A stretch of 64,000 nucleotides of DNA, from contig JAKFCY010000002.1 in assembly GCA_036676395.1 (NCBI GenBank), forward strand, positions 1,568,001 through 1,632,000, given 5' to 3'. This DNA is from Bdellovibrio sp. GTDB lineage: Bacteria > Bdellovibrionota > Bdellovibrionia > Bdellovibrionales > Bdellovibrionaceae. Position 1 is the stretch's first letter, and every line of letters starts with the position of its first letter. The position numbers are program-made. This document shows positions 44,901 through 53,900 of the stretch, in pieces.

Positions 44901-47900
44901 TGCCCCACTGAAAGCGCCGTAGCTTATCGTTAAAAACAAAGTAAGAATTTTAATTTTACGTCTAAGTTGAATCATAGTACCTCCTACTGAATCACTGATT
45001 TGATTTCTTTAGCGTGTGCGAGATGCACGGTGATCGCATCACGAGTTTTTTCTAAGTGAGCCTTATAGGCCGCATTTTGCGCCCCAGAAATTAACGTGTT
45101 CACAGTGTCTAAAGCTTTTTCGTGCATGCCCACCTGCTGATCCATATACGCACGATCGAAGTCTTCTTTAGCTGTTTTTTTCAAAGTTTTTTCCATATCT
45201 TGGGCTTCGGCTTCTAATGATTTACTCATGTCTGTTTTTTTGAAGTCTAAGTCTTGTTTACGTGCTATTTTTTTTGTGTCTTTTTCATTTTTCTTGTGTT
45301 GATCGACCATCATTTTAGCGTAGTCTTTGACTTGTTTGTTGCTGGCTTTACGTTTGGCTAATTGACCTAAATCAATTTCACCTTCGTTTAGAGTCACCAT
45401 GACCTCTGCACTTTCTCCGTCAGAAAGCGTTGTGGGCATAGCCTTAGCCATGTCTTCAGCTGTAGCATAAGGAATATTGCTTAAAGTGAATAACACGAGT
45501 GTTACCATTGATATTAAAAGTTTTCTCATTTCTAAGTCTCCTTTTTAAGATTGTTTATTTTGCTGCGTGATCCAACAGCGATTAACAATAATATTGCAAG
45601 CGACCCGCCAGAATTGGCGGGGTGATATTCCTCGAAATTGAAAATTTAATTTGGTTTACGACACGTAACGGTGCTAATCTTTTGGCTATGAATACATGGG
45701 TTAGTTTTCTTCCGGCAATCTTAGGTGTGGTCGTTGTTTTACAAGCAGGCCTTAATAAAAAAATCTCTGCAAATTGGGGAATAACTTCAGCCGTTTTATT
45801 AAACGCTATCGTCTTCTTTGTGATTGCGGCTGTATTCTTTGCTGTCGCTTTATGGCGCGGTGATTTGTTCTCAGCGAACATGAAACCCAGTTTAGACCTG
45901 AAAACTTTTTCCCTCTGGTATTTAATTCCAGGCGCTCTAGGTTGTGTTTTAGTTTTTGGTGGCCCGCTGGCGATTATGCGCTGGGGCGCTGTTCACACCT
46001 TTATTTTAATTATTTCAGCACAGTTGTTAGCAAGTCTTATCTGGGATTGGAAAATCGAAGCCCTACCGGTTTCGCCGATGCGTATTGCCGGAATTTCTTT
46101 AGCTTGGATAGGTGCCGTGCTGGTATGCAAGGCCTAATCAGCTACTATGCCACGTTACAATCATTGGTTGAAGTGGGCTTAGGAAGTTTTTTACACGCGA
46201 TGCATATTCCTTTCTCAGGGCATGCCTTATCGTTAAACCAAGGATTGATCTTAACTCAAGCTTGTCAAAAAACTGAAAACCGTAAAGAGGCGATCACAGC
46301 AACCAATGGCATTTCAATTATCACAGCCATTCTCAAATCACTTTCGCCAATGGGAAAACGCCTGACGCCGATGCTTGCGATCAGCATGCAGGGGTTTTTA
46401 TTTTCAATCGGTGTGTTTATTTTCGGAAATAATATTCTAGGCATGATTTTAGGTATTAGCCTTTTATCACTCTGGAGTTTTGCGCAACCGCTGCTGTTTG
46501 CTTATTTGTTTTTTGGTGAGAAATTATTTTTTGCTGTTGAAAAGCTTTGGCTAGATACCGCTGAAAAATTATCGCTATCTGCTGAGTATGGTCTAAATAT
46601 CTTAATCGCTTTTGTTGGCTTAAAAATTATCTTAGCATGGATTGTAGCTCTGATTGGCTGGAAGTACCCCACTTGGATTACCGAAAAGTATTTCACTAAA
46701 ATCATGAAGTACAAAGACTTCACGACGAATAAAATTAAAAATAGAAAAACTCAAAGCGCTACTAGCGGCGCTTTTAAAGATTTATTAAACCCCTGGATGA
46801 TCATTTCATTAGTCTTAACGATTGGGTTTATGATTTTAACCGAGAAATCAGATTATTTTCAGATTTTTGTTTATAGTCTGCGAGTCATCGCCATTGCCTA
46901 CGTGGTGTTTTTTATTTTACGGGCTTTTCCGCAAAGCTGGATCAAAAAAGCTCTTAAGTCGTTTCCCACTTTAGCAAAGACTGTGGATCAAGTTTACGAT
47001 CGCGCTCCTGAATCAACTGAGCCGAAACACTAACTGCAATCTCATAAGGATGATTTTGTCCGATGGGAAAGCCAATTGGGCAATGAAAGTCTTTAAGCGC
47101 TTCTGCACGAATACCGAATTCTTGTAATTCTTTACGCAGTCTTAACCCTTTAACTTTGCTGCCGATGTTTCCAATAAATGGAGCTTCAGCAAAATGCGTG
47201 TAGAGTTGTTTTAAAATTGGTAAATCCATGGCATGACCTTGAGTCATGATTACAAAAAAAGAATCTTTATTTAGCGTTTCAACCATCGCTGATGGATCTT
47301 CGGCATGAATTTTTTTAAGATTAAAGCTTTCAGGAAGTTTATCTAACCATTCGGTGCGATTATCTATGCAAGTGACCTGACAATTTAAATTAATCAATAA
47401 CCGAATCAAGGCTTGCGAAACATGTCCCGCACCGAAGACCACAATCGGCCAGGTGCTATAACGATGCACTTCAAATAGATATGTGATCTCGCCGCCACAG
47501 CTCATACCGATATCACGCTGTAAGTTCCACGTGATAAGTTCAGGTTCTGATTTATTCTGGTTGATCATTTCTTTACTGTGTAAAATCGCACGCGCTTCAA
47601 CCCGACCACCACCAATAGTACCCCAGTGAAGTCCGTTATCGGTGATAATAGCTTTAGCTCCTGCATCTTGCGGCGCTGAACCGCGCGAACCAATCACTGT
47701 TACGACAACAAAAGACCGTGCCCTATTTTGTAATTCGAAAGCTACATCCCAATATGTTTTCATTAATGCAGCTTCGACCATTTTTTGAAACGTTCAGGAT
47801 TAATGGCTTTTAAAATTTCTTCGTTCGTCGCTGGCAACTCCATCAAAGGATATTTTCCTTTATACGGTGTTAACGTCTTAAGTGCATCGTGAATCGCTGT

Positions 47901-50900: not shown

Positions 50901-53900
50901 AGCTTAGAGTCTGCGATAAACGCATTTTGCGTTTATTATGCACAACTCCCAGATCTGTGGCCGCAGCTACAATTTTAGCCGATTTGTTTTTACCTAAGAA
51001 ATTAACAGCATCTTTAATTTTAACAGGGGCAAAGAACGAAAATTTATCGCTAGTTAACACAATTGGTACTTTTAAATGAGCTGCCACATCTTTTTGCGAA
51101 GCAAGGCTTGAAAATCTTTTACTCACCGATTCAGATTCGCTCAAAGAAATGTTTTTCGCAGCATCAATAATGGGTTGATAACCGGTGCAGCGGCAAAGAT
51201 TACCTGTGGTCGCATTTTTAGCATCACAAGAAGTAATTTCTGTTTGTTTTTGGCAAAGTTTTTTCTCGACTAAACCAGTCAACGCCATCACAAAACCCGG
51301 AGTACAAAAGCCACACTGACTGCCATGGCAAGTCATCATCGCCTTTTGCACTGGCGTATGCTCTGGATTCGCCAAGGCATCAACTGTGACTAAATGTGAG
51401 CCATCCATCTGTGCAACTGTCGTCACACATGAATTAATCGGCAGAAAAATGTTTTTCTTTTTTCCAGACTGATAAGGGTAAAAACGCAGCACCGAGCAGG
51501 CGCCACAGTCGCCCTCAGCACAGACGATTTTTGTCCCCGTAAGATTCTTATGATAACGAAGATAATCTGAAAGCATCACGCCGGCCTGTTCGCCCGAAAT
51601 TTGATGTCTTTCACCATTAAGATAAAATAGGATGTAATTGCGTGTCTTCATCAATCTTCATTGTTCCCTTAAAACGCTCTTGATCTAAAGATTTTTCTTT
51701 TGTAACGTAGTTCGTCATGAACAATCAATATATGAAAAGAGCCATTGAGCTTTCAAAAAATAATATCGCCCACGGCGGCGGTCCCTTTGGCGCTGTCATT
51801 GTAAAAGATGGTAAAATTATCGGTGAAGGTTTTAACAAGGTCACCGCTAACAACGACCCCACAGCTCATGCTGAGGTTGAAGCCATCCGCGAAGCTTGTA
51901 AGAACATCAGCAACTTTGATTTAAACGGTGCCGAAATTTACACCAGCTGCGAACCCTGCCCGATGTGCTTATCGGCTATTTACTGGGCGCGCCTATCGAA
52001 AGTTTATTACGCCAATACAAAAAAAGATGCTGCAGATATCGAATTTGATGATGCTTTCATCTACACTGAAATTCCAAAACCGATTGAACAACGAAAAATT
52101 TCAATGGTTCAGATGATGCGCCCCGAAGCTTTAGAAGTTTTTAAAGCCTGGCAAACTTCAACAGTAAAAATTAAGTACTAGGCATACGAATTGTAACTTT
52201 GTTTTGGAACACGATTCCAATCGAGGTAAAACAATGCACAATGCCCCAACTTTTAAACGACGCCTATTTTTGCAAAACATTTTCGGTTTTTCGATCCTTC
52301 TATCAGCTACGAGTCTGTCTGTTTTTACTGGCTGCTCAGGCAGCGGCAGTAGTTCTGATGACCCAAATTCAGCCTTAGACGATGGCGGAAGCTGTATCGT
52401 TAGCGGCACGCAAATCGAAATTCAAATGGTGCATACACCTAACCACACGTTACTCATTTCAAAAGATGACGTTAATGCTGGAGTTCAAAAAACATTTATT
52501 TTAGAAGACAACGGCTCTGGACACATTCACGCCGTAACACTTTCTTCAGCCGACTTTGCCACCTTACGAACTAATAGCGCCATTCAACTTATAAGCACAA
52601 CCGATGATGCCCATGCGCATGTTGTTGCCGTTGGCTGCGCCTAAATCTTGTGGCCGCCCACTTGCATTTTTATTCACCGCTTAAGTCAAAGGAGGCTTTA
52701 TGGAACAAAACAAACCAAGTAACGCTACTACCGAAATAGATACCGCTGCAGAGCGTGCACGCGCCGCCGCAACAAACATCGCCACGACTGCGCCGGTCAC
52801 AGTGACCAACACCCCGAGTGTCGTTGTCGAAGGTGAAATTCGTCAGCTTTTAGAAGAATTTGCAGATTCAGTTCGCAGCGGAAAAATAGAAGATATTATG
52901 TCGTTTTATGATCCAAGTTTAGTCGCCTTCGATGTCGCCCCACCCCTACGCTTTACCAGTGCTACTGAATATAAAAAGAATTGGGAAACCATGTTCACAT
53001 CGGCCATGGAATTTCCAGTCACTTACGAATGGAGTGAAGAAAGAATTTTTGCTAGTGGTGAGATTGGTATTTTTCATTGTCTGATTCACACGGCAGGAAC
53101 ATTTAAAAATCCGCCAGAAGGCCAAGATAAAAATATGGACTGCTGGGGTCGCTACACGTGCGCCTTGAAAAAAACGAATAATCGCTGGCGCATTGTGCAC
53201 GAACACTTTTCAGTGCCCGTGGGTGAAGATGGCAAAGGTTTAATGAATTTGAAACCTGGCTTTCAGGCTTCTCATTAGATCGGTGAATTATTAGAGCATT
53301 GCATTTTACGAAACTGATCCATTTTTGAATAAATGAGGTCAGCCCATAATTCATTAATTCTAGAATTTAAGGCATCGCCTTTTAAACCCGTTTGTTTTTC
53401 AACAAGCTTTTTAAAAGGCATGTCGACATCGTGAAAATTTGAAACTTGCAAGATCGTCATTAAATCCTGACGAGAAACTAAATCTAAACGAGCTACGAAA
53501 TCACGGCGAGCTTGCTCTGTAACAGTTTTTAATCCAGGTAAGTCTTTATTAGGACCTTTTCCCGGCTGCGCTGTCAGGGTACAGTTATTATCAGCAAACA
53601 TATTTAAAGCTCTGTAAGCATTGTAGTCACCACGCGGATGATTTTTATTTTTAACAAACTTCAAATCGCGATTTCCAAATGCAGAACCTAAATCGTGGGT
53701 TCCGGCAATCGGTGAATTACAAAGTTTTTTAAGACCATCAGCAGATTTCACAACATTCGCCTCTTCACATAATAATACGTGCTGCGAACCACGTTCTTCC
53801 ACCGTATGAACCAGATTGATAAATAACGCTAACACCTGAATTTCGTGCTGCTGCAGAACTGATAATTTTTTGAAATTCGTAATGTATTCATCCCAGCGCC

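What a model noticed while it worked through the whole genome (the two positions that open the first line are those of the whole stretch)
46954..51651. Molybdenum-cofactor enzyme without a molybdenum-cofactor pathway: xanthine dehydrogenase and its XdhC chaperone in a gen [...]
The genome encodes a complete xanthine dehydrogenase operon: FAD/2Fe-2S subunit (g01582), molybdopterin-binding subunit (g01581, 814 aa) and the cofactor-insertion chaperone XdhC (g01580). Yet none of the genes that make molybdopterin (MoaA C-terminal domain, MoaC, MoaE, MoeA) can be found, even in six-frame searches of this 99.3%-complete assembly. The same mismatch holds for most Bdellovibrionales that carry the enzyme, closed genomes included. 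The simplest reading is that these predators take the finished cofactor, or a late precursor, from their prey and load it with XdhC, i.e. a bacterial Moco auxotrophy met by predation.
Evidence so far: pfam.tsv/ncbifam.tsv: g01582 Fer2_2+FAD_binding_5+CO_deh_flav_C; g01581 Ald_Xan_dh_C+MoCoBD_1 (1e-81)+MoCoBD_2, collinear with Arabidopsis XDH1 res 18-550 and 598-1345; g01580 XdhC_CoxI+XdhC_C, NCBIfam 'xanthine dehydrogenase accessory protein XdhC'. A MOSC-domain protein (g00357) is a second likely Moco user. Six-frame HMM searches of the genome: MoaC PF01967, MoaE PF02391, MoeA_N PF03453 and Mob_synth_C PF06463 each give 0 matches at E 0.001, and each rings in 11 of 14 control genomes. The only MoCF_biosynth protein, g00814, is CinA-like (33-38% id to CinA), and no NCBIfam row names a molybdate transporter. 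In 100 other Bdellovibrionales genomes, MoCoBD_1 is over its cut in 38, MoaC in 12 [...]
(Added by a program. Inside this text positions count along the whole contig: contig position 1,568,001 is position 1 of the stretch shown here. "Call 12" and the like, gene names such as g00115 and contig names such as C1 are that model's own, and its searches are not shown. The text may have been shortened before it was handed on; [...] marks where a part breaks off. The agent that wrote the report below was given it as the finding of a first reader that could run no searches.)

Follow-up and report, generated by a model that had tools for sequence, protein, structure and literature searches.

The report
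Molybdenum enzyme lacking its cofactor pathway
A bacterium from a group of bacterial predators keeps an intact xanthine dehydrogenase and its cofactor-loading helper but has no genes to make the molybdenum cofactor, so it probably takes the finished cofactor from other bacteria, perhaps through a neighbouring membrane protein of a family not described before.

Summary
The window carries an intact xdhA-xdhB-xdhC operon. The 99.3%-complete genome has no MoaA C-domain, MoaC, MoaE, MoeA, ModA or MocA. Two methods agree on this: six-frame HMM searches, and tblastn with a same-genus Moco cluster.

In 151 genomes of the order, the four Moco markers are all-or-none (17 genomes). 48 of 58 carriers of xanthine-oxidase-family enzymes have none of the four, 10 single-contig genomes included. 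47 of those 48 keep XdhC.

The enzyme looks functional. Ten catalytic or cofactor-contact residues are invariant. dN/dS is 0.02-0.07 in Moco-less pairs, XdhC included. Neighbouring genes are purine-catabolic.

The bare mismatch is already tabulated for Bdellovibrio bacteriovorus HD100 in a 2018 supplement. The salvage idea was not found in print.

New here:
- About 18 Moco-less genomes also keep a MocA-like cytidylyltransferase beside such enzymes, so late steps survive without early ones.
- The gene next to xdhC (46125-47033, no Pfam family) has an ECF S-component-like fold.
- Its family lies beside xdh-like operons in 45 of 80 loci across Bdellovibrionota.
- It is fused to MocA in at least seven protein clusters, in both domain orders.

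This makes it a candidate Moco importer. Nothing biochemical is shown.

The parts
50188..51651 (-). xdhA: xanthine dehydrogenase small subunit (two 2Fe-2S domains plus an FAD domain)
   Evidence: Pfam Fer2_2, FAD_binding_5 and CO_deh_flav_C. TIGR02963 scores 429.6 bits, below its cut-off of 467. Both cysteine clusters are present and an ATG lies at the second codon of the ORF.
47763..50207 (-). xdhB: molybdopterin-binding catalytic subunit, 814 aa
   Evidence: Pfam Ald_Xan_dh_C, MoCoBD_1 (1.5e-81) and MoCoBD_2. TIGR02965 scores 865.4, above its cut-off of 849.5. E 8e-171 to R. capsulatus XdhB 1jro_B. Ten catalytic or cofactor-contact residues are invariant in 18 orthologues.
46954..47781 (-). 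xdhC: Moco-binding and insertion chaperone, 275 aa
   Evidence: Pfam XdhC_CoxI and XdhC_C. TIGR02964 scores 178.9, above its cut-off of 161.6. dN/dS is 0.02-0.07 in Moco-less pairs. XdhC is found in 57 of 58 MoCoBD_1 carriers of the order.
46125..47033 (+). 302-aa membrane protein of a Bdellovibrionota-specific family with no Pfam or NCBIfam match. It lies tail-to-tail with xdhC, overlapping it by 80 bp, and has an ECF S-component-like fold. Candidate Moco (Mo-molybdopterin) uptake protein.
   Evidence: No family match. 596 homologues; every hit that carries an organism name is from Bdellovibrionota (one labelled only 'Proteobacteria bacterium'). AF2 model pLDDT 84.5. The top 13 of 48,161 chains are all ECF S components, Z 12.9-8.0. 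Its family lies beside xdh-like operons in 45 of 80 loci. It is fused to MocA-like domains in 7 protein clusters.
45691..46137 (+). 148-aa DMT_YdcZ-family membrane protein, overlapping the start of the 302-aa gene by 13 nt
   Evidence: Pfam DMT_YdcZ 2.3e-14. It lies directly upstream of the 302-aa family in 16 of 80 loci, and nearby in one more. It lies next to xdhA in 8 of 20 xdh loci, including the Moco-plus genomes G091 and G149. A purine or urate transport role is therefore more likely.
51717..52181 (+). 154-aa cytidine-deaminase-fold deaminase, divergent from xdhA; probably a guanine deaminase
   Evidence: Pfam dCMP_cyt_deam_1 5.7e-29. The best NCBIfam hit, TadA, is below its cut-off. It lies next to xdh in G075, G127, G150, G037 and G114. 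The guanine assignment is inferred from context only.

Best explanation
The operon encodes a canonical, working, Moco-dependent xanthine dehydrogenase of the R. capsulatus/eukaryote type. It oxidises hypoxanthine and xanthine that derive from guanine (adjacent deaminase) and from prey nucleic acids. The cell cannot make molybdopterin or insert molybdenum, so it must acquire finished Mo-molybdopterin from outside. For a member of a predatory clade, the most plausible source is Moco-containing proteins of the prey. XdhC then binds the cofactor, has it sulfurated, and inserts it into XdhB.

A likely entry route in this lineage is the 302-aa S-component-like membrane protein encoded tail-to-tail with xdhC. 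In lineages whose xanthine-oxidase-family enzymes use the cytosine dinucleotide form, a MocA-like transferase would convert the imported cofactor. That transferase is sometimes fused to this membrane protein.

Shown: gene content, conservation, selection, neighbourhoods, fusions, fold similarity.

Inferred: uptake, the chemical species taken up, the prey as source, and enzyme activity.
For: (1) The pathway is absent.
- Four Pfam markers give 0 hits in the own genome.
- tblastn with a same-genus Moco island is negative.
- There is no ModA.
- Across 151 genomes the four markers are all-or-none, present in 17 genomes.
- 48 of 58 MoCoBD_1 carriers lack all four. Ten of these are single-contig genomes.

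(2) Where the pathway exists in the family, it is one accessory island.
- The island holds a DMSO-reductase-type enzyme, moaA, moaC-moaB, a MOT1-type transporter, moeA, moaD, moaE, mobA and moeB.
- It forms a clean 16.1-kb indel against a sister genome.

(3) The enzyme is functional by sequence.
- Residues Q197, E232, R310, R342, F344, F459, T460, E730 (R. capsulatus numbering) and two cofactor-contact motifs are invariant in 14 Moco-less and 4 Moco-plus XdhB.
- dN/dS in Moco-less pairs: XdhA 0.016 and 0.068; XdhB 0.022, 0.017 and 0.064; XdhC 0.069 and 0.023.
- The Moco-less branches of the tree show no acceleration.

(4) Late cofactor-handling genes are retained.
- XdhC is present in 47 of 48 Moco-less carriers.
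- MocA-like genes (>=64 bits, ORFs under 360 aa) occur in 21 genomes. 18 of these have no Moco marker, and 12 lie within 5 kb of a MoCoBD_1 gene.

(5) The context is purine-catabolic.
- Neighbours are guanine-type or adenine deaminases, HIU hydrolase, and an OHCU-decarboxylase/allantoicase fusion.

(6) Evidence on the candidate importer.
- S-component-like fold.
- 19 of the 21 order genomes that hold the family also have MoCoBD_1.
- The family lies beside xdh-like operons in 45 of 80 loci.
- It also lies beside a second, PucD-like enzyme type.
- It is fused to MocA in both domain orders.
- 73 of 80 genomes holding the family lack MoaC.

(7) Precedent.
- C. elegans takes protein-bound Moco from its bacterial diet (PMC7849362 abstract; PMC9793310 passages).
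- B. bacteriovorus is modelled as auxotrophic for eight other cofactors (PMC7529429 passages).
Against: - There is no biochemical evidence of any kind: no activity, no Moco content, no expression data. No RNA run was listed.
- Free Moco is very labile, and reviews state that it cannot generally be taken up (PMC9026282 passages).
- The membrane family was not found in the Bdellovibrio-like genus g3: 0 of 17 with the protein and 0 of 5 closed genomes with the profile. Yet 13 of g3's 14 XDH carriers lack the pathway. The family therefore cannot be the general route.
- MoaC frequency among genomes holding the family (7 of 80) matches the order's background (16 of 151), so the family is not enriched in Moco-less genomes.
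- The gene is mostly convergent with xdhC, not co-transcribed: 32 of 45 loci.
- No EcfT is present.
- The top fold score, Z 12.9, is within the range that helical models can reach by chance (note).
- Strong DMSO-reductase-type enzymes in the order almost always come with the full pathway: 12 of 13 genomes. Scavenging, if it occurs, evidently does not serve every Moco form.
- The XdhB tree does not follow taxonomy, so operons move between lineages.
- Many sampled genomes are fragmentary, and related genomes are not independent observations.
Confidence: 0.6

Rival explanations
1. The XDH-family proteins in these Moco-less bacteria work without Moco. They could act as an FAD/FeS dehydrogenase or diaphorase, or use another cofactor. 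This is the 'Mo-independent form' option raised by Peng et al. 2018.
For: - There is no pathway and no molybdate transporter.
- DMSO-reductase-type enzymes in the order keep the pathway while XDH does not.
- Peng et al. raise this possibility for orphan molybdoproteins (PMC6147048 passages).
Against: - All ten catalytic and cofactor-contact residues checked are invariant.
- XdhC, whose only known role (recalled) is Moco handling, is kept in 47 of 48 Moco-less carriers under dN/dS 0.02-0.07.
- MocA-like genes, whose known substrate is Mo-molybdopterin (recalled), sit beside such enzymes in Moco-less genomes.
- The purine-catabolic context fits the normal reaction.
Confidence: 0.12
2. The 302-aa membrane protein transports the enzyme's substrate or product (xanthine, hypoxanthine, guanine or urate), not the cofactor. 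Moco, if it is imported, enters by another route.
For: - Transporters next to catabolic operons usually carry substrates.
- The context is purine catabolism.
- Some known S components carry purine-like molecules, such as queuosine precursors (recalled).
- The family is absent from genus g3, which still has XDH without the pathway.
- The second, PucD-like enzyme type beside the family may itself be a xanthine dehydrogenase, since its best NCBIfam hits are pucD/XdhA.
Against: - Independent fusions to MocA-like Moco nucleotidyltransferases exist in both domain orders: 7 clusters among the 120 listed of 339 hits.
- Clusters of the family with XdhC and MocA occur, for example in G089.
- The separate YdcZ-type membrane protein tracks xdh regardless of Moco status and is the better candidate for purine or urate transport.
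Confidence: 0.3
3. An unrecognised, non-homologous route makes the cofactor in these bacteria.
For: Absence is inferred from homology searches only. Peng et al. mention 'new Moco biosynthetic components' (PMC6147048).
Against: - The known pathway is universal where Moco is made (recalled).
- When members of this very order do have a pathway, it is the canonical one, complete and clustered.
- No candidate gene set co-occurs with xdh in the loci examined.
Confidence: 0.05
4. The operon is a decaying relic or a recent, unused horizontal acquisition, or the pathway genes lie in unassembled sequence.
For: - The XdhB tree is incongruent with taxonomy.
- XdhA scores below its NCBIfam cut-off.
- The genome is in 14 contigs.
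Against: - The ORFs are intact.
- dN/dS is 0.016-0.069 across three Moco-less pairs.
- Orthologues are 48-88% identical across six families.
- Ten single-contig genomes show the same mismatch.
- Completeness is 99.31%.
Confidence: 0.03

Closest known systems
Rhodobacter capsulatus XdhAB with XdhC (PDB 1JRO/2W3S)
   Same: - Two-subunit architecture: FeS/FAD subunit plus Moco subunit.
- An XdhC gene follows.
- E 8e-171 to XdhB.
- All catalytic residues checked are conserved.
   Different: - The host genome has no Moco synthesis, no MoeA or MobA for XdhC to interact with, and no molybdate transporter.
- XdhB has a ~55-residue insert around residues 540-594.
- XdhA is below the equivalog cut-off.
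'Orphan molybdoprotein-containing organisms' of Peng, Xu and Zhang 2018 (BMC Genomics 19:691, PMC6147048)
   Same: The same mismatch. Their Table S1 lists B. bacteriovorus HD100 with no Moco pathway and no Mo transporter, but with 1 XO, 1 DMSOR and 1 MOSC protein. In all, 305 bacteria fall in this class.
   Different: - They offered pseudogenes, unsequenced genes, new biosynthetic components or Mo-independent forms, and found no distinguishing sequence features.
- They did not analyse selection, XdhC or MocA retention, clade-wide pattern or uptake.
Dietary Moco acquisition in Caenorhabditis elegans (and Moco-synthesis loss in Haemonchus contortus)
   Same: An organism that eats bacteria obtains mature Moco from them. 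[quoted passage not shown]
   Different: - The precedent is an animal, not a bacterium.
- C. elegans still has its own pathway.
- The transport mechanism is stated to be unknown.
- A 2021 review calls C. elegans the only known exception (PMC9026282).
S components of ECF transporters (RibU, FolT, ThiT, BioY, PanT; for example 5EDL, 5KBW, 4Z7F)
   Same: The predicted fold of residues 1-188 matches these chains. The top 13 structural matches of 48,161 have Z 12.9-8.0. These are small membrane proteins that capture vitamins and cofactors, including the pterin folate.
   Different: - No sequence-family membership.
- An extra ~110-residue C-terminal helical part.
- No EcfT in the genome.
- The family is restricted to Bdellovibrionota-type records.
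- It is fused to MocA in some members.
MocA / PucB-type Moco cytidylyltransferases
   Same: The domains fused to, or next to, the membrane family hit TIGR03310 (up to 161.8 bits), PucB and DVU_1551-type NTP transferases.
   Different: - All score below the curated cut-offs.
- They occur in genomes that have no source of their substrate.
- This window's genome has none.

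Membership tests
Xanthine dehydrogenase, XdhA/XdhB type (xanthine oxidase family) | Domain architecture: 2x[2Fe-2S] + FAD subunit, and hammerhead + MoCoBD_1 + MoCoBD_2 subunit | tested here: met
   Pfam. Both cysteine clusters are seen in the translation.
Xanthine dehydrogenase, XdhA/XdhB type (xanthine oxidase family) | Scores over the NCBIfam equivalog cut-offs | tested here: inconclusive
   XdhB 865.4 is above 849.5, so it is met. XdhA 429.6 is below 467, so it is not met.
Xanthine dehydrogenase, XdhA/XdhB type (xanthine oxidase family) | Catalytic and substrate-orienting residues (R. capsulatus Q197, E232, R310, F344, F459, T460, E730; roles recalled from memory) | tested here: met
   Alignment to 1jro_B. 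The E232Q variant 2w55 confirms the numbering. The residues are invariant in 18 orthologues.
Xanthine dehydrogenase, XdhA/XdhB type (xanthine oxidase family) | Bound sulfurated Mo-molybdopterin and xanthine:NAD+ activity | not testable with these tools
   Needs purified enzyme or cell extracts.
XdhC Moco-insertion chaperone | XdhC_CoxI + XdhC_C domains, equivalog score, gene next to xdhB | tested here: met
   TIGR02964 178.9, above 161.6. The gene overlaps xdhB by 19 nt.
De novo Moco biosynthesis pathway | MoaA (Mob_synth_C), MoaC, MoaE, MoeA present | tested here: not met
   0 hits at E<=1 for each. tblastn with same-genus proteins is negative.
De novo Moco biosynthesis pathway | MogA/MoaB, MoaD, MobA/MocA, molybdate uptake (ModA or MOT1 type) | tested here: not met
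   - The only MoCF_biosynth protein is CinA-like.
- tblastn finds no MoaD, MobA or MOT1.
- ModA scores 16.8 bits, below 62.5.
- No MocA-like hit.
ECF-transporter S component | Six-helix S-component fold | tested here: met
   The top 13 matches of 48,161 chains are all S components: Z 12.9 (rmsd 3.5, 161 aligned) down to 8.0. The first unrelated chain is at Z 7.7. Foldseek gives only probability 0.89, E 0.42.
ECF-transporter S component | Sequence membership in a described S-component family | tested here: not met
   No Pfam or NCBIfam match at E<=1 beyond noise. The Atlas gives only a 0.76 lead to Trep_Strep.
ECF-transporter S component | Partner EcfT (and EcfA) module | tested here: not met
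   CbiQ/EcfT PF02361 gives 0 hits in the genome. EcfA was not searched.
Orphan molybdoprotein-containing organism (Peng et al. 2018) | Moco-dependent enzyme homologue present, Moco pathway and Mo transporters absent | tested here: met

The most novel reading that the evidence does not exclude
Bdellovibrionota run a Moco salvage pathway. They have discarded cofactor synthesis but kept the late steps (XdhC, and MocA where the cytosine dinucleotide form is used). The Bdellovibrionota-specific S-component-like membrane family (here 46125-47033) is the uptake protein for prey-derived Mo-molybdopterin. That would make it the first cofactor-specific Moco transporter identified in any organism. The MocA fusions would trap the imported cofactor at the membrane.
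Probability: 0.33. Interest if true: 0.9.

Novelty: new variant of a known kind. Interest (0 to 1): 0.78.

Why it matters
Moco is widely held to be the cofactor that cells must make themselves because it is too unstable to share. A 2021 review names C. elegans as the only known exception and says the salvage mechanism is not understood (PMC9026282).

A whole bacterial clade that keeps Moco enzymes, the insertion chaperone and, in places, the cytidylyltransferase, but has dropped synthesis, would show that Moco is a traded nutrient among microbes. It would also give predation a further nutritional dimension.

The system is experimentally tractable: culturable Bdellovibrio on E. coli Moco mutants. 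It comes with a concrete candidate gene for how Moco crosses a membrane. That question also bears on therapy for human Moco deficiency.

Finally, it offers an explanation to test for part of the 305 'orphan molybdoprotein' bacteria left unexplained in 2018.

Tried and rejected
- Complex prediction of the 302-aa membrane protein (A1) with XdhC (A2): score 0.00, no verdict. It says nothing either way.
- The look-up of sequencing runs on 45691-52181: no RNA holder listed. Only soil and groundwater metagenome DNA holders were found, three of which may be the source. Read laying was therefore not run, and there is no expression evidence.
- Foldseek of the membrane model against the PDB: nothing at E<=0.001. 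The S-component match rests on VIA-align.
- Search for fused forms of 530-2000 aa: none. The fusions are about 505-520 aa and were found with the fusion itself as query.
- ABC half-transporter pair next to the fusion in L121: found beside the family in only 2 of 80 loci. It is not a conserved partner.
- tRNA at the borders of the Moco island: none. blastn of the G091 island flanks against the own genome gave no match, so an empty site could be shown only for G083 against G047.
- Enrichment of the membrane family in Moco-less genomes: not supported. MoaC is present in 7 of 80 genomes holding the family, against 16 of 151 in the order.
- dN/dS for most orthologue pairs: synonymous sites are saturated. 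148-151 of 153 pairs could not be used for XdhA and XdhB, and 116 of 120 for XdhC. The G091-G132 XdhC value of 0.50 lies at the saturation limit and was disregarded.
- Three loci (G032, G131, G013) were left out of the dN/dS set because they encode a different, PucD-like enzyme.
- Promoter and terminator scans are at chance level.
- Literature searches gave nothing on a bacterial Moco auxotrophy or uptake: 'Bdellovibrio' + 'molybdenum cofactor' (13 papers), + 'xanthine dehydrogenase' (4), Moco + auxotroph + uptake + bacteria (122, of which 20 were listed), 'Moco transporter/uptake/import/salvage' (9), 'Bdellovibrio qaytius' (2). Subscription-only papers are not covered.

Full report
**1. What is in the window**

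Three overlapping ORFs on the minus strand occupy 46954-51654. Pfam and NCBIfam identify them as follows.
- XdhA: Fer2_2, FAD_binding_5, CO_deh_flav_C. TIGR02963 scores 429.6 bits, below its cut-off of 467.
- XdhB: hammerhead, MoCoBD_1 at 1.5e-81, MoCoBD_2. TIGR02965 scores 865.4, above 849.5.
- XdhC: TIGR02964 scores 178.9, above 161.6.

The XdhA translation shows both 2Fe-2S cysteine clusters and an ATG at the second codon.

A 154-aa cytidine-deaminase-fold deaminase lies divergently at 51717-52181.

The ORF listed as 45942-47033(+) is really two genes:
- a 148-aa DMT_YdcZ protein at 45691-46137;
- a 302-aa membrane protein at 46125-47033 with no Pfam or NCBIfam family. It ends 80 bp inside the 3' end of xdhC, on the other strand.

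**2. Is the cofactor pathway really missing?**

The own assembly has 3,401,850 bp in 14 contigs and is 99.31% complete. Six-frame searches at E<=1 gave 0 matches for MoaC, MoaE, MoeA_N and Mob_synth_C. Each model rings in 11-13 of 14 control genomes.

Other findings in the own genome:
- The single MoCF_biosynth protein is CinA-like.
- ModA reaches 16.8 bits against a cut-off of 62.5.
- No DMSO-reductase-type hit (PF00384) and no sulfite-oxidase-type hit (PF00174).
- One 207-aa MOSC protein, distantly YiiM-like, is a second possible Moco user.

As an independent method, I took the complete Moco gene set of a same-genus genome (G091) and ran tblastn against the laid genome. MoaA's radical-SAM half and MoeB's ThiF domain found paralogues. 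MoaC-MoaB, MoeA, MoaD, MoaE, MobA, the MOT1-type transporter and the DMSO-reductase-type subunits found nothing better than E 0.02.

**3. The pattern in relatives**

I searched one evenly drawn sample of 151 genomes of the order, own genome included.

| Marker | Genomes with a hit |
|---|---|
| MoCoBD_1 | 58 |
| MoaC | 16 |
| Mob_synth_C | the same 16 |
| MoeA_N | those 16 plus G142 |
| MoaE | those 16 plus G142 |

The pathway is therefore all-or-none, and 134 of 151 genomes have none of it.
- Ten MoCoBD_1 carriers are Moco-plus.
- 48 of 58 carriers have none of the four markers. Ten of these are single-contig genomes: G075, G047, G059, G063, G067, G071, G099, G119, G123, G131.
- Seven genomes have the pathway but no MoCoBD_1.
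- XdhC_CoxI occurs in 58 genomes, 57 of them the MoCoBD_1 carriers. The exceptions are G020, which lacks it, and G136, which has only it. So 47 of 48 Moco-less carriers keep the chaperone.

Related genomes are not independent, and many sampled genomes are fragmentary. The closed genomes carry the argument.

**4. Where the pathway does occur, it is an accessory module for another enzyme**

In G091 (same genus) all Moco genes lie in one block. The block holds:
- a 1159-aa DMSO-reductase-family subunit, an FeS subunit, an EB_dh haem subunit and a NarJ-like chaperone;
- moaA, a moaC-moaB fusion, a MOT1-type MFS molybdate transporter, moeA, moaD, moaE, mobA, DUF7009 and moeB;
- then a phage-integrase fragment.

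G083, in the Bdellovibrio-like genus g3, has the same block by ORF sizes and by 68-71% nucleotide identity. Against its sister genome G047, 16.1 kb holding this block is replaced by about 90 bp between collinear flanks.

Across the order, strong PF00384 hits (E<=1e-20) occur in 13 genomes, and 12 of them are Moco-plus. The pathway therefore tracks DMSO-reductase-type enzymes, not XDH.

**5. Is the XDH functional?**

XdhB aligns to R. capsulatus XdhB (1jro_B) at E 8e-171. The E232Q variant entry 2w55 fixes the numbering.

I checked Q197, E232, R310, R342, F344, F459, T460 and E730, plus the GQG and AASSG cofactor-contact motifs. The roles of these residues are recalled from memory. All are invariant in 14 Moco-less and 4 Moco-plus orthologues.

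Nei-Gojobori dN/dS could be computed for only a few pairs, because the rest are saturated. Values for the Moco-less pairs:

| Pair | XdhA | XdhB | XdhC |
|---|---|---|---|
| G047-G059 | 0.016 | 0.022 | 0.069 |
| G123-G071 | 0.068 | 0.017 | 0.023 |
| G000-G075 | not usable | 0.064 | not usable |

In the XdhB tree, the Moco-plus G083 branch (0.07) is as long as the path to its Moco-less sisters (0.055 + 0.010-0.013). There is no relaxation. The tree does not follow the family labels, so the operon has moved or has old paralogues.

**6. Context**

xdhA-B-C is conserved at 48-88% XdhB identity in 17 of 20 fetched loci. The other three (G032, G131, G013) encode a different enzyme (see section 7). 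Neighbouring genes:
- a CDA-type deaminase in the window, G075, G127, G150, G037 and G114;
- adenine deaminase directly after xdhC in genus g3 (G059, G123);
- HIU hydrolase, plus a 1404- or 1421-aa fusion of malate synthase, OHCU decarboxylase, a beta-lactamase-fold domain and allantoicase, in G150 and G132.

This is purine catabolism, as expected for a genuine XDH. The window's own genome has no homologue of the urate-degrading genes or of adenine deaminase, so its pathway would end at urate.

**7. Late steps without early steps**

G032, G131 and G013 carry a second, PucD/XdhA-like enzyme, about 30% identical to XdhB. Its best NCBIfam hits are all below cut-off. It is followed by FeS and FAD subunits, an XdhC that scores over its cut-off, and a 201-aa MocA-like NTP transferase. 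None of these genomes has a Moco marker, and G131 is a closed genome.

In the order sample, MocA-like hits of at least 64 bits in ORFs under 360 aa occur in 21 genomes.
- 18 of the 21 have no Moco marker.
- 12 of the 21 lie within 5 kb of a MoCoBD_1 gene.
- Weaker hits in ORFs of about 470 aa look like GlmU and were ignored.

MocA's known substrate is finished Mo-molybdopterin (recalled). Keeping it, and XdhC, makes sense only if the cofactor is present in the cell.

**8. The neighbour gene**

The 302-aa protein has 596 homologues, and every hit that carries an organism name is from Bdellovibrionota (one is labelled only 'Proteobacteria bacterium'). Examples are 84% identity to a protein of 'Bdellovibrio sp. 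qaytius' and 85% to a 'Pseudobdellovibrio sp.' record. This places the window's organism near Pseudobdellovibrio.

*Fold.*
- The AlphaFold model from a 33-row alignment has pLDDT 84.5 and pTM 0.74.
- Foldseek gives nothing significant.
- In an all-against-48,161-chain VIA-align search, the 13 best chains are all ECF-transporter S components: 5edl Z 12.9, RibU, FolT, ThiT, BioY, PanT, NikM. They cover residues 1-188, and the first unrelated chain has Z 7.7.
- The tool warns that helical models can reach such Z values by chance.
- No EcfT is encoded.

*Distribution in the order sample.*
- 21 of 151 genomes have the family.
- 19 of those 21 also have MoCoBD_1.
- By coordinates, it lies next to xdhC or the MoCoBD gene in 11 of them.

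*Distribution in 80 loci from species-representative genomes.* The record titles name Pseudobdellovibrio, Bacteriovorax, Peredibacter, Halobacteriovoraceae, Oligoflexia and others.
- 45 loci have an XdhB-like gene (over 300 aa aligned) within 10 kb.
- 56 loci have some XdhA, XdhB or XdhC-like gene.
- The family is usually 6-120 bp from xdhC.
- In 32 loci the arrangement is tail-to-tail, as in the window. In 13 it is co-directional. These 13 include all 7 loci with the PucD-like enzyme, and in 6 of those 7 the enzyme genes follow directly.

*Fusions.*
- In locus L121, one 508-aa ORF joins an N-terminal MobA/MocA-like NTP_transf_3 domain to this membrane domain. XdhC and a MoCoBD enzyme lie directly upstream.
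- With that ORF as query, 7 of the 120 listed hits (of 339) are such fusions of 504-522 aa, only 32-42% identical to it. One is named MocA by its source.
- P0176 has the reverse order: membrane domain at 10-276 and MocA at 317-504, with TIGR03310 at 161.8 bits.
- The window's protein is 36-40% identical to the membrane parts (E 1e-43 to 5e-53).
- The genome that holds the L121 fusion has no MoaC.

Two independent fusion architectures with a Moco-modifying enzyme tie this family to the cofactor and not to the purine substrate.

*The YdcZ gene by contrast.* It accompanies xdh in Moco-plus genomes too (G091, G149). It is the likelier purine or urate carrier.

**9. Limits of the importer idea**
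- The family is absent from the Bdellovibrio-like genus g3: 0 of 17 with the protein, and 0 of 5 closed genomes with the profile. The profile call had no positive control.
- Genus g3 has 14 XDH carriers, 13 of them without the pathway. Another route must exist there.
- MoaC is found in 7 of the 80 genomes that hold the family. That is no lower than the order's background.

**10. Literature**

Peng et al. 2018 (PMC6147048; passages and supplementary Table S1 read):
- They define 305 bacterial 'orphan molybdoprotein' genomes.
- They list B. bacteriovorus HD100 as Moco-minus and transporter-minus, with 1 XO, 1 DMSOR and 1 MOSC protein.
- B. exovorus JSS and strain ArHS are listed without XO.
- Bacteriovorax marinus SJ is listed as Moco-plus.
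- Their suggested explanations are pseudogenes, missing sequence, new biosynthetic components or Mo-independent forms.

Other papers:
- The HD100 metabolic model lists eight cofactor auxotrophies and never mentions molybdenum (PMC7529429, passages).
- The B. qaytius preprint mentions neither molybdenum nor xanthine.
- The B. marinus paper only lists XDH in a shared island (PMC3526173, passages).
- A 2021 review states that C. elegans is the only organism known to take up Moco and that the mechanism is not understood (PMC9026282, passages).
- PMC9793310 says transport is by unknown mechanisms.

My searches found no paper that proposes Moco uptake by a bacterium. Subscription journals are not covered.

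**11. Verdict**

The bare mismatch is on record for one relative, in a supplementary table.

New here:
- the evidence that the enzyme is under selection and catalytically intact across a Moco-less clade;
- the retention of late steps only (XdhC, MocA);
- a gene family at the locus linked to Moco handling by neighbourhood, fusion and fold.

The most likely mechanism is salvage of finished Mo-molybdopterin from prey, loaded by XdhC. I put this at about 0.6. That the 302-aa protein is the importer I put at about 0.33. No biochemical step is shown.

Noticed in passing
L035:3-4214(-) (G150) and L044:8236-12498(+) (G132): A 1404- or 1421-aa single ORF directly after xdhC and HIU hydrolase. It fuses malate synthase, OHCU decarboxylase, a beta-lactamase-fold domain and allantoicase, so a urate-to-malate route appears to sit in one polypeptide.
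   Followed up: no
L028 (G091:C7:6000-25000) and L029+L050 (G083): A self-contained island. It holds a type-II DMSO-reductase-family enzyme (alpha 1159 aa, FeS beta, EB_dh gamma, NarJ-like delta), the complete Moco pathway and a eukaryote-like MOT1-type MFS molybdate transporter, followed by an integrase fragment. It forms a clean 16.1-kb indel against sister genome G047. The enzyme's substrate is unknown.
   Followed up: partly
Order sample, for example G123:C1:1084487-1085521, G020:C5:146799-147866: Weak PF00384 hits (24-56 bits) in ORFs of about 1000-1070 aa occur in many Moco-less genomes. They may be Moco-free relatives, such as the ActB subunit of alternative complex III (recalled, unverified). 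If so, they would explain the 'DMSOR' orphans listed for Bdellovibrio in Peng et al. Table S1.
   Followed up: no
P0173 (502 aa): Another fusion of the membrane family, this time to an N-terminal AAA_18-type domain, NCBIfam-labelled 'DNA topology modulation protein' (PF13238; NCBIfam PRK08118, 54.8 bits, below cut-off).
   Followed up: no
window 45691-46137(+); also L040, L042, L032, L043: A 148-aa DMT_YdcZ membrane protein is a recurrent neighbour of xdhA in both Moco-less and Moco-plus genomes: 8 of 20 xdh loci. It directly precedes the 302-aa gene in 16 of 80 loci, and lies nearby in one more. It is probably a purine or urate carrier.
   Followed up: partly
G064 (C195:6093-7223) and G138 (C1:915796-916275): G064 has a strong DMSO-reductase-type hit (E 1.6e-25, 788-aa ORF) but none of the four Moco markers. 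It is a 360-contig assembly. G138, a closed genome, has a MocA-like gene but no MoCoBD_1 and no XdhC.
   Followed up: no
G000:C2:356817-357146 (L027:1357-1980): A 207-aa MOSC-domain protein, distantly YiiM-like (6-hydroxyaminopurine reductase model, 86 bits against a cut-off of 294). It lies between citrate synthase and a HIT-family gene and is a second possible Moco user in the Moco-less genome.
   Followed up: partly
window 53275-54726(-) and 54936-56414(+): Two ORFs of 483 and 492 aa have no Pfam or NCBIfam match. They are conserved at 77-88% identity next to the xdh region in same-genus loci.
   Followed up: no
L107, L129, L133, L126, L104: A few loci of the membrane family come from assemblies whose record titles name Parachlamydiaceae, Chlamydiales, Verrucomicrobia, Flavobacteriaceae or Sulfitobacter. 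None has an xdh neighbour. Mis-binning or a wider range of the family was not examined.
   Followed up: no
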